Below are positions 30,801-33,800 of a DNA stretch of 64,000 bases, piece by piece. The position numbers are program-made. Positions within the stretch are counted from its first letter, which is position 1. Each line of letters opens with the position of its first letter. The stretch comes from Escherichia coli O127:H6 str. E2348/69 (lineage in GTDB: Bacteria > Pseudomonadota > Gammaproteobacteria > Enterobacterales > Enterobacteriaceae): the NCBI RefSeq assembly GCF_000026545.1, contig NC_011601.1; one strand, given 5' to 3'.

Positions 30801-33800
30801 CATACAGTTAAGTGTATTATCGGCGCAGAGCCCGGGCGAACCGGGCTTTGTTTTATTTCATTAACAGCAAAGACTTTCACTTCAGGTTAACGTTCTGGGG
30901 GGCGACTTTGAGCGTGTTGATAAGCTGAAATGAATTCTGGTTTAGATACTTTTACCAGGCATTTTTCGTCATAGCACGCGACCAATGTAATGCCGCCAGC
31001 GCGGAAAGTTTTTTGCCTATCTTTTTCCAGCCATTCAACCTGTACAGGAGGTCTGGTGCCAATTTTGCGTATGAGGTTCCATCAATAATGGACCATAATT
31101 TGGCTGACTGATTAACACCGAATACATTCCCCTGATTATATTTTTTAGGGATAACATTAAAAATGTCAGGTTAATCTTAATTAATTCTTTGGCTAATATT
31201 TTGTGTTGTTATTTTTTGTGGAAGGCAAGCCGCAATGGCAAAATAGGGGTGGTTGTAATAATAAAAACATGATACTAACTATATATTGATCGTTGAATTG
31301 TTGGCATGTAACACGCTACAGCGAGTAACGTTGGTAATGAAATATAATCAACATGGATAGGTGAAAATTAATTATGAGCTTTATGGCTTTTGTAACTTGT
31401 TTGACAATTGCATTTGTCGCCGGTTTTGTTGTTGCCAGAAAATTGACACTCCGAAAAGTTGCCTCATCGGTGATCATCACTAAATCGCAACCAGTCCCTT
31501 CATCTGCAACTCCCCCTGCTGCTAAGGCGTCGACAAGGAGTTATACACCGCAGAAAACCTATCGTGATTCTCGTTGGCAAGAACGAGATGAGTTATTTCA
31601 GGGAATGGTTGCCGAAGGCATTTTATTGGAAGGAAAAGAGTGGTTAATTACGCGTTGTGAGAAAATCTATTTCGATAATCTGGAGAAATGGTTTGGACAT
31701 TATTGCCATATCCATTGCCAGGTCTCTCTGGGGCGCTTGATCAACTTTCCAGAACAACCCGAGTTTAGCGAAGAAGAAAGAAAGCGTTTCTTTGCTATTT
31801 ATAATGGCATGGCAATGGATTATGTGCTGGTTTCAAAGAAGAACAATAAAATAGTCGGTGTTATTGAGCTGGATGATCCGAGTCATGAAAGGGCAGATCG
31901 CATTATTCGTGACCATTGGTTGGATACGATTATGACTCTTGCTCGGGTGCCTTTTGTACGAGCTTCTGTCACTAAATTGGAGGAAATCCCTCCGGTCTGG
32001 GATACCCGTGACAAAATTCGCCCATTAGTCGCGGCGAAAAAGAGTGAACCGTTGCATTAACCAGGTATCCCCGGTCGGGGCTTCTCATCCCCCCGGTGTA
32101 TGCAATATACGAAAAAAAGCTCGTACTTTCGTACGAGCTCTTCTTTAAATATGGCGGTGAGGGGGACCGCCTGAAATAAATCTGACTTAATCCAGGGGTG
32201 TTATATAATTTCATTATAAACAATGTATTACACTTTTTGTTGTCCGATATTATCTAATGTATTCTTAGTGAAGCGAGGGACTAATGGCATACTGGATGGC
32301 ATACCAAAGTGACGGGAATTAGCGTATGGCAGTATTGACGGATACGAAAGCAAGACATATCAAACCTGATGACAAACCATTGCCCCATGGGGGAATTACC
32401 GGACTGACCCTTCATCCTTCTTCAGTAAAGGGGCGGGGGAAATGGGTTTTTCGTTATGTAAGTCCGGTGACACAAAAAAGACGTAATGCTGGATTGGGAA
32501 CTTACCCAGAGGTCAGTATTGCTGAAGCTGCACGTACTGCCCGGATAATGCGAGAGCAACTTGCTGCAGGTGATGATCCTCTGGAGATTAAAAAGGCTGA
32601 ATCTGAGAAAGTCGTTATCCCAACATTTGCCGATGCAGCCAGGCGTGTACATGCAGAACTGTCTCCTGGATGGGAAAATCCAAAGCATGTAAGGCAGTGG
32701 TTATCGACGCTTGAGAATTACGCGTTTCCTCAACTGGGAGCAAAAACGCTGGATTCGATTACGGCTGCGGACGTGGCAGAAACACTGCGTCCAGTCTGGT
32801 TAACCTTGTCAGAAACGGCAAGCCGGGTTAAACAGCGCATTCATGTTGTTATGCAGTGGGGATGGGCGCACGGTTTTTGTGTGGCAAACCCTGTTGATGT
32901 GGTTGACCATTTGCTTCCTCAGAAGACAAGAGGACGTGATGAACACCAACCCGCAATGCCCTGGAGGCAGTTACCGCTTTTTGTGGCGACCAGTGTGTAT
33001 ACAGATGAACCTTATAATGTTACCCGGGCACTGTTATTAATGGTGATACTTACAGCAACCCGCTCGGGCGAAGCCAGGGGAATGCGCTGGGCTGAAATTG
33101 ATTTTCATAAGCGGATATGGACTATACCCGCAGAAAGAATGAAAGCCAGGATACAGCATCGAGTTCCTTTATCCCGGCAGGCCATGCACATTCTGGAAAA
33201 TATACGTGGTTTGCATGATGAACTAGTGTTTCCTTCTCCCAGAAAGCAGCAGATCCTTTCAGATATGGTGTTGACGAGTTTTCTGCGTAAAAAGAAAGCC
33301 ATCAGTGATATACCGGGGCGAGTTGCCACGGCACATGGTTTTCGCTCAACATTCAGGGACTGGTGTAGTGAACAGGGGTATTCGCGGGATCTGGCGGAAA
33401 GGGCGCTCGCTCATACGCTGAAAAATAAGGTTGAGGCGGCATATCATCGTACTGATCTACTGGAGCAGCGTGTACCGATGATGCAGGCATGGGCGGATTA
33501 TGTGATGTCTCAATTTGCTAAAAACACTAAGGAATTCGCTTAGTTTCATGGACTGGCATACTCAGAGTAGCCAAATGGTTACTGCTTTCTTTTTTGAAAA
33601 ATAAATGCAATGCCAGTTCGTAATGAAAACCTGGCATTGCACTCAGATAACGATTATTCATTATTATAACGAATAATACACTTGTGATAATTTATTTTTT
33701 GTCCGATAGTATCTATAGTCTGTTTCGGTGATACTTCAGTATGTTTTGATGATCACAAATGAAAACTCCGGCATCGAATGCAGGAATATTTAGTTTTTTT

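What the first reader, a model, noticed from the sequence alone, without database searches (positions are those of the whole stretch)
32150..32175. 14-nt match to the 3' end of tRNA-Ser beside the integrase, without a tRNA body
TGGCGGTGAGGGGG is the reverse complement of the serX/serW-type tRNA-Ser 3' terminus as I recall it, and sits 170 bp upstream of int. It could be the distal direct repeat of a tRNA-Ser-targeting island, but it also forms a small hairpin (GGCGGT-gaggggg-ACCGCC) and could be coincidental.
Basis: inference. Interest (0 to 1): 0.3.

Follow-up and report, generated by a model that had tools for sequence, protein, structure and literature searches.

The report
serX attachment-site repeat of island IE2

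Summary
The window is E. coli O127:H6 E2348/69. TGGCGGTGAGGGGG at 32152-32165 is real. It equals the reverse complement of the last 14 nt of K-12 serX. The ~83 bp to its left is the chromosomal flank downstream of serX, including its terminator.

The same 14-mer occurs only once more in 134 kb. That copy lies 60,926 bp to the right, in the same orientation, as the 3' end of an intact serX just outside the window. About 0.0009 copies are expected by chance.

A strain with the same left flank (phoH, DUF2726, serX, ghrA) has the site empty. In roughly 4,200 complete E. coli genomes, homology to the junction stops exactly at 32165. In 1,139 genomes it continues into the integrase upstream region.

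Both island ends carry a pair of ATGGCATAC repeats, which are candidate arm-type integrase sites. The adjacent integrase has intact catalytic residues and is 98% identical to the O157:H7 OI-48 integrase. An AlpA-family gene follows.

The literature gives this exact 14-bp repeat for OI-43/OI-48 and for the Shigella SRL island, where excision was shown experimentally. The island's gene content matches IE2 of E2348/69.

The small hairpin may be the recombinase core-site inverted repeat, but that is an inference.

The parts
32069..32151 (-). Chromosomal flank downstream of serX (B' side of attB). It is a partial 'RtT-like' unit that ends in the hairpin terminator at 32118-32139.
   Evidence: Homologous to the K-12 and 2018-01-1CC sequence immediately 3' of serX. 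Terminator-like stem-loop found by the scan.
32152..32165 (-). 14-bp core direct repeat TGGCGGTGAGGGGG, the last 14 nt of tRNA-Ser(GGA) (CCA, discriminator base, 7-nt acceptor strand, 3 nt of the T stem). It is the tRNA-distal copy, the cryptic ser'X.
   Evidence: Exact match to the serX 3' end. The second copy is in intact serX 60,926 bp to the right. Homology in empty-site genomes ends at 32165. The identical repeat is published for OI-43/48 and SRL PAI (PMC3064760).
32153..32171 (.). Inverted repeat GGCGGT-N7-ACCGCC spanning the chromosome/island junction. It would also be present in the reconstructed attP. It is a candidate pair of core-type integrase half-sites around a 7-bp overlap, GAGGGGG.
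   Evidence: DNA fold -6.5 kcal/mol, z = -3.6. ACCGCC is invariant in six junctions at serX and serW. The functional assignment is an inference.
32166..32325 (+). Island-side arm of the attachment site (P' arm), between the core and the int start. It contains a sigma-70-like promoter candidate at 32182-32209.
   Evidence: Homology to 1,139 island-bearing genomes continues through this stretch, while empty-site genomes stop at 32165. Promoter-like site CTGACT-16-TATAAT.
32284..32304 (+). Two direct copies of ATGGCATAC, 12 bp apart (32284-32292 and 32296-32304). These are candidate arm-type integrase-binding sites.
   Evidence: The same pair occurs 77 and 65 bp before the core copy at the other island end. 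These four are 4 of only 5 exact copies in 134 kb on both strands. Both copies are invariant in six junctions.
32326..33543 (+). Integrase gene: a P4-family tyrosine recombinase of 405 aa.
   Evidence: Pfam Arm-DNA-bind_3, Phage_int_M and Phage_integrase domains. The R...HxxR...H...Y residues can be read in the translation. 390/400 residues identical to the O157:H7 OI-48 integrase.
33713..35242 (-). DUF3987 gene, a conserved neighbour of int in these islands.
   Evidence: Pfam DUF3987, E = 1.7e-61. The same neighbour is seen in other loci.
35214..35519 (-). AlpA-family small DNA-binding protein, the probable excisionase (recombination directionality factor). RefSeq annotates a shorter start, at window 35501.
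   Evidence: Pfam Phage_AlpA, E = 1.6e-17. The role is inferred from established knowledge of AlpA-type factors in P4-like islands.
32166..64000 (.). Left 31.8 kb of the ~60.9-kb island, which matches IE2 by content. It runs off the window and ends at window-equivalent 93077, followed by the second core copy and serX at 93078-93165.
   Evidence: Annotation of NZ_LT827011.1. Content of lifA-like, a 168-aa nleE, and frameshifted nleB and espL matches the IE2 description in PMC5685641.

Best explanation
The 14-mer is the tRNA-distal copy of the attachment-site core (the cryptic ser'X). It was created when a genomic island of about 61 kb integrated by site-specific recombination into the 3' end of the serX tRNA-Ser(GGA) gene.

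The island's circular form carried an attP with this layout: a right arm with two ATGGCATAC sites, then TGGCGGTGAGGGGG, then ACCGCC and a left arm with two more ATGGCATAC sites, then int. Its P4-family tyrosine integrase recombined this with the identical 14 bp at the end of serX.

The exchange left one core copy inside an intact serX, outside the window. The other copy is joined to the old serX downstream flank on one side and to the int-proximal island arm on the other, and that copy is the finding.

The hairpin is not an RNA element. It is the inverted repeat GGCGGT/ACCGCC around GAGGGGG, which is most simply read as the two core-type integrase half-sites around a 7-bp strand-exchange region.

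Shown here: the repeat, the flanks, the empty site, the shared arm repeats, the intact integrase and the population pattern. Taken from the literature: excision by recombination between these repeats in sister islands. Inferred: the arm-site and core-site roles, the 7-bp overlap, and that the E2348/69 copy can still excise.
For: - There are two exact copies in 134 kb, both in direct orientation and 60,926 bp apart, with no internal copy. About 0.0009 are expected by chance.
- The left copy is preceded by the serX downstream flank. The right copy is followed by the serX body, which is 150/150 identical to an empty site. ARAGORN confirms tRNA-Ser gga at the right end.
- An empty site exists with the same left flank: strain 2018-01-1CC has phoH, DUF2726, serX and ghrA, with a single core copy.
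- In the junction query, the non-island genomes listed in the spread sample match only up to query position 126, which is window 32165, over an annotated tRNA-Ser. In 1,139 of 5,426 genomes the match covers the junction and the int upstream region.
- The same junction...GGGGG|ACCGCCTGAAATAAATC, is found behind four different left flanks: DUF2726, ycdU and a GGDEF gene at serX, and clpA at serW.
- ATGGCATAC pairs occur in both arms, accounting for 4 of 5 copies in 134 kb.
- The integrase domains and catalytic residues are intact, and it is 98% identical to the OI-48 integrase. An AlpA-family gene is present.
- PMC3064760 states that OI-43 and OI-48 are flanked by the perfect 14-bp repeat TGGCGGTGAGGGGG, the last 14 bp of serW and serX, identical to the SRL PAI repeats. 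It also demonstrates complete excision restoring intact serW and serX. PMC7545054 summarises int-dependent excision of SRL PAI at serX with 14-bp repeats.
Against: - Nothing here contradicts the explanation.
- Excision or a circular form was not shown for E2348/69 itself, and it could not be shown from sequence.
- The island is full of IS elements and pseudogenes, so it may be mosaic even though its ends are intact.
- Conservation of ACCGCC and the ATGGCATAC sites has limited power, because the aligned arms are only about 2-8% divergent overall.
- The primary SRL attP papers (Turner 2001 and 2004) were not available. I could therefore not check whether core and arm sites were mapped, or where.
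Confidence: 0.95

Rival explanations
1. It is a chance 14-nt resemblance to a tRNA 3' end that happens to form a small hairpin.
For: With up to 2 mismatches allowed, shuffled windows give 0.29 matches on average. The hairpin is short, with a 6-bp stem.
Against: The expected number of exact matches is about 0.0009. The flank to the left is the authentic serX downstream sequence. A second exact copy lies in serX at the other island end. The homology breakpoint in thousands of genomes falls at exactly 32165.
Confidence: 0.01
2. It is not an integration product. Instead it is one of the pre-existing 181-bp 'RtT-like' tandem units downstream of serX, each of which carries a copy of the tRNA 3' end, or it is a serX truncated by deletion, with the island merely lying next to it.
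For: K-12 has three such units, each with the full 14-mer. The sequence left of the motif is part of such a unit.
Against: In genuine units the 14-mer is followed by GGATTGACTCG, giving 19 nt of tRNA identity. Here identity stops after 14 nt and island DNA begins. The empty-site strain with the same flank has only one core copy, in serX. The breakpoint is the same at serX and serW and behind four different flanks, which fits site-specific recombination and not a random deletion.
Confidence: 0.03
3. The hairpin at 32153-32171 functions as an RNA element, either a terminator for the DUF2726 gene or serX, or a regulator of int, and not as a recombination site.
For: It folds better than its shuffles, z = -3.6. 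It lies between a gene end and the int promoter candidate.
Against: No T-run follows it. The scan calls only the upstream hairpin at 32118-32139 as terminator-like. Half of the stem is tRNA-derived and half is island-derived, so it exists only at the junction and in attP. No Rfam family matches it meaningfully.
Confidence: 0.03

Closest known systems
OI-43 / OI-48 (tellurite-resistance and adherence islands) of E. coli O157:H7 EDL933 and Sakai, at serW and serX
   Same: The 14-bp direct repeat TGGCGGTGAGGGGG is identical (PMC3064760). The junction and int upstream arm have the same sequence (L010 and L011). The integrase is 98% identical. The layout is the same, with the cryptic ser'X next to int and the intact tRNA at the far end (figure legends). 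Excision between the repeats was shown for those islands.
   Different: The cargo differs: ter, ure and iha there, against lifA-like, nleE2, nleB* and espL* plus R-M/DarTG here. The left chromosomal neighbour is ycdU there and DUF2726 here. The integrase is 400 aa there and 405 aa here.
[quoted passage not shown]
   Same: It is inserted in serX, is flanked by 14-bp direct repeats stated to be identical to those of OI-43/48, and shows int-dependent precise excision (PMC7545054; PMC3064760). Its int is reported to be 99% nucleotide-identical to the OI-43/48 int and 15 bp longer, which matches the 405-aa length here.
   Different: Its cargo is resistance genes and fec. I could not compare the SRL sequence directly, because AF326777 is not in the searchable collections and the Turner papers are not held.
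Phage P4 integrase / leuX and other P4-like tRNA-targeting islands (for example CP4-57 at ssrA)
   Same: The integrase has the same domain architecture. The core is identical to the 3' end of a tRNA gene. An AlpA-family factor is present.
   Different: From my own knowledge, in P4 and most P4-like islands int lies next to the intact tRNA. Here, and in OI-43/48, int lies next to the tRNA-distal repeat, and the far end of the island (the DUF4942 / cbtA-cbeA module) abuts the tRNA.
rtT repeats of the tyrT operon
   Same: serX and serW are followed by 181-bp tandem units that each repeat the last 19 nt of the tRNA, and PGAP annotates them as RtT sRNA.
   Different: The finding is not such a unit. 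Its tRNA identity ends after 14 nt, at the island junction.

Membership tests
SRL PAI / OI-43 / OI-48 family of serX/serW-integrating islands | Perfect 14-bp direct repeats TGGCGGTGAGGGGG at both island ends | tested here: met
   Copies at window 32152 and window-equivalent 93078, with no other copy in 134 kb. The sequence is as published.
SRL PAI / OI-43 / OI-48 family of serX/serW-integrating islands | One repeat is the last 14 nt of an intact serX or serW | tested here: met
   tRNA-Ser(gga) at L005 7079-7166 begins, as its reverse complement, with the repeat.
SRL PAI / OI-43 / OI-48 family of serX/serW-integrating islands | P4-family integrase closely related to Int of OI-48 / SRL, located beside the cryptic ser'X repeat | tested here: met
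   390/400 residues identical to the O157:H7 integrase at serX. Domains found. The relation to SRL Int rests only on PMC3064760.
SRL PAI / OI-43 / OI-48 family of serX/serW-integrating islands | A precise empty site, made of the flanks plus a single core, exists in relatives | tested here: met
   Strain 2018-01-1CC has phoH, DUF2726, serX and ghrA. The homology breakpoint falls at 32165 across genomes.
SRL PAI / OI-43 / OI-48 family of serX/serW-integrating islands | Int-dependent excision to a circular form, restoring serX | not testable with these tools
   This needs PCR or genetics in E2348/69. It was shown for sister islands. The reconstructed attP is not contiguous in any complete genome, as expected.
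SRL PAI / OI-43 / OI-48 family of serX/serW-integrating islands | Recombination directionality factor of the AlpA/Rox type | tested here: inconclusive
   An AlpA-family ORF is present at 35214-35519. Its identity to SRL Rox and its function were not tested.
tRNA gene or tRNA pseudogene | Cloverleaf body (D, anticodon and T arms) adjoining the 3' end | tested here: not met
   ARAGORN finds no tRNA in the window. There is no tRNA match in Rfam at gathering score or at E<=10. Identity to serX stops after 14 nt.
RtT-like 181-bp repeat unit downstream of serX/serW | 19-nt copy of the tRNA 3' end followed by GACTCGCTTCGC... | tested here: not met
   The motif is followed by ACCGCCTGAAAT, which is island DNA. 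There is no RtT match.
Intrinsic terminator | G+C-rich stem-loop followed by a T-run | tested here: not met
   The scan reports only 32118-32139. The 32153-32171 hairpin has no T-run.

The most novel reading that the evidence does not exclude
The most novel reading that the evidence does not exclude has two parts.

- The junction hairpin marks the actual core-type integrase half-sites (GGCGGT / ACCGCC) around a 7-bp overlap, GAGGGGG.
- attB recognition needs tRNA T-arm sequence beyond the 19 nt that the tRNA shares with the tandem RtT-like pseudo-sites.

The second part would explain why none of 5,426 complete genomes shows the island's right arm joined to a pseudo-site, even though most genomes carry one to several full copies of the 14-bp core there. 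If so, the RtT-like units would be non-functional decoys or scars rather than usable secondary attachment sites. As far as I could check, this may not have been spelled out for this integrase.
Probability: 0.4. Interest if true: 0.2.

Novelty: already known. Interest (0 to 1): 0.08.

Why it matters
It fixes the left boundary of the E2348/69 effector island, which matches IE2 by content, to the base: island DNA starts at window 32166.

It shows that the island still has both perfect repeats, both arms, a full-length integrase and an AlpA-type gene. The island could therefore still excise, as its O157:H7 and Shigella relatives do. That is relevant to the stability of the lifA-like and nleE2 genes, but it adds nothing new in principle.

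Tried and rejected
- I searched the window for a tRNA or a second repeat and found none. The partner lies outside the window and was found only through the public record.
- I first assumed the island was IE6, because it carries lifA, nleB, nleE and espL. I rejected this. The pseudogenised nleB and espL, the 168-aa NleE and the lifA-like gene match IE2 as described in PMC5685641. I could not read Iguchi 2009 to confirm the name or its stated integration site.
- I tried to read the primary SRL attP papers, but they are not held.
- I searched for the reconstructed attP as a contiguous sequence, such as a tandem array or free element. No genome has it.
- I searched for integration into RtT-like pseudo-sites and found none.
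- A sensitive Rfam scan of the junction gave only sub-threshold hits driven by the terminator hairpin, such as MicC at 36 bits against a gathering score of 90. I discarded them.
- In the junction alignment, the AREA_499 row used the wrong core copy (a pseudo-site) and should be ignored.

Full report
**Where the window comes from.** The window is from E. coli O127:H6 strain E2348/69, the prototype EPEC strain. Window position x corresponds to NZ_LT827011.1 position x + 1,088,000. Around the finding the gene order is efeUOB, phoH, a DUF2726 gene (31374-32060), then the motif. A tyrosine integrase follows (32326-33543), then a DUF3987 gene, an AlpA-family gene and an IS-rich island. The island carries a lifA-like gene, nleE, frameshifted nleB and frameshifted espL.

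**The observation.** TGGCGGTGAGGGGG is at 32152-32165 and is unique in the window even with two mismatches allowed. The reverse complement of serX (tRNA-Ser GGA, minus strand, 1097565-1097652) begins TGGCGGTGAGGGGGGGATTCGAACC. The match is therefore exactly 14 nt: CCA, the discriminator base, the 7-nt acceptor strand and 3 nt of the T stem. No tRNA body adjoins it. The hairpin GGCGGT-N7-ACCGCC is real, at -6.5 kcal/mol as DNA with z = -3.6. The motif ends 160 bp before the int ATG.

**Why it is not chance.**
- The ~83 bp to the left (32069-32151) is the genuine chromosomal sequence downstream of serX. It includes the hairpin terminator at 32118-32139 and the ...ctcttctttaaata that abuts the tRNA in K-12.
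- In 134 kb of E2348/69 the 14-mer occurs exactly twice, against about 0.0009 expected. The second copy is 60,926 bp to the right, in the same orientation, and forms the 3' end of an intact serX next to ghrA. That copy is about 29 kb beyond the window, which explains why no tRNA is found inside it.
- The bases flanking the 14-mer differ between the two copies on both sides (A/C on the left, A/G on the right), so the repeat is exactly 14 bp.

**The empty site and the population pattern.** Strain 2018-01-1CC has phoH, DUF2726, serX and ghrA with a single core copy. Its left flank matches the window's left junction. Its right flank is 150/150 identical to the E2348/69 right junction. I searched window 32040-32330 against 5,426 complete E. 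coli genomes. In 1,139 of them the match covers the junction and the int upstream arm. In the listed non-island genomes the match stops at query position 126, which is window 32165, over an annotated tRNA-Ser. The same junction sequence...GGGGG|ACCGCCTGAAATAAATC..., lies behind four different left flanks: DUF2726, ycdU and a GGDEF gene at serX, and clpA at serW. This is the signature of site-specific integration.

**Anatomy of the attachment site.** Joining the two island ends reconstructs attP. ATGGCATAC occurs as a pair spaced 12 bp apart at -77 and -65 before the core, and again at +132 and +144 after it (window 32284-32292 and 32296-32304). All four are in the same orientation. They account for 4 of the 5 exact copies in 134 kb and are invariant in the aligned junctions. 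I read them as arm-type integrase sites, which is an inference. The inverted repeat GGCGGT/ACCGCC around GAGGGGG would be present in attP, and it fits the usual tyrosine-recombinase layout of two core half-sites around a 6-8 bp overlap. That is also an inference. The arms differ by only a few percent between genomes, so conservation is weak evidence.

**The recombination genes.** The integrase has Arm-DNA-bind_3, Phage_int_M and Phage_integrase domains. The R, HxxR, H and Y catalytic residues can be read in its translation. It is 390/400 identical to the integrase beside ser'X in O157:H7. An AlpA-family ORF (35214-35519, minus strand) is the probable excisionase. A sigma-70-like site at 32182-32209 may be the int promoter.

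**Comparison with what is known.** PMC3064760 states that OI-43 and OI-48 of EDL933 are flanked by the perfect 14-bp repeat TGGCGGTGAGGGGG. It describes this as the last 14 bp of serW and serX, and as identical to the repeats of the Shigella SRL PAI. The same paper reports that the OI integrases are 99% nucleotide-identical to SRL int but 15 bp shorter. It also shows that both OIs excise completely, restoring intact serW and serX. The E2348/69 integrase is 405 aa against 400 aa in O157:H7, which matches that 15-bp difference. PMC7545054 summarises int-dependent excision of SRL PAI at serX with 14-bp repeats. By content (espL*, nleB*, nleE2 lacking 56 residues to give 168 aa here, and efa1/lifA-like) the island matches IE2 of E2348/69 as described in PMC5685641. 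I could not read Iguchi 2009 to confirm this.

**Orientation.** The integrase sits beside the tRNA-distal repeat, and the other island end (the DUF4942 / cbtA module) abuts serX. From my own knowledge this is the reverse of P4 and many other P4-like islands. It is nevertheless the normal layout for OI-43/48, so it is not an anomaly here.

**A side observation.** K-12 has three 181-bp tandem units downstream of serX. Each repeats the last 19 nt of the tRNA, including the whole 14-bp core, and PGAP labels them RtT sRNA. A synthetic right junction joining the island arm to such a unit is found in none of 5,426 genomes. All right-arm matches continue into a real tRNA-Ser and stop after the shared GGATT. 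This suggests that the integrase needs tRNA sequence beyond the shared 19 nt. The number of independent integration events is unknown, so the inference is tentative.

**Verdict.** The feature is the already-described attachment-site repeat of a known island family in a well-studied genome. Interest is low.

Noticed in passing
L004 14023-14565 (K-12, downstream of serX); also L002 6852-7032: Three tandem 181-bp 'RtT-like' units each carry the last 19 nt of serX, including the full 14-bp core. None of 5,426 genomes shows the island's right arm joined to such a unit, which suggests the integrase needs tRNA sequence beyond the shared 19 nt.
   Followed up: partly
window 31374-32060: In E2348/69 and some other strains a DUF2726 gene sits between phoH and serX, where K-12 has pgaABCD, dgcT, an IS3 and ycdU. 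This is a different kind of variable segment at the same locus, and its origin was not examined.
   Followed up: no
window 32326-33543 vs L011 1682-2884: The integrase is 405 aa here and 400 aa in O157:H7, and the two diverge at the C-terminus (last 4 aligned residues plus 5 extra here) besides 6 scattered substitutions. This agrees with the published remark that the OI-43/48 int is 15 bp shorter than the SRL PAI int.
   Followed up: partly
window 35575-37437: A 620-aa ORF beside the AlpA-family gene has no Pfam match. RefSeq calls it a hypothetical protein.
   Followed up: no
window 7167-7447: Three tandem naRNA4 (CssrE) matches lie on the minus strand at about 101-bp spacing, all above the Rfam gathering score.
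   Followed up: no
window 30613-30806: A full-length, high-scoring Rfam match to Yersinia sRNA Ysr251 (188.7 bits) lies antisense to the 3' end of phoH.
   Followed up: no
window 38812-39844: Inside the island there is an inovirus-type Gp2 protein gene and a frameshifted fragment annotated as a TOTE conflict-system primase domain. These may be relics of other mobile or defence modules.
   Followed up: no
NZ_LT827011.1 1150984-1159629 (window-equivalent 62984-71629, mostly outside the window): A darT-darG toxin-antitoxin pair is embedded between the R and S genes of a type I restriction-modification operon in the same island.
   Followed up: no
window 57173-57289: An ALIL pseudoknot (IS3-family frameshift element) is present, one of many IS remnants that make the island highly mosaic.
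   Followed up: no
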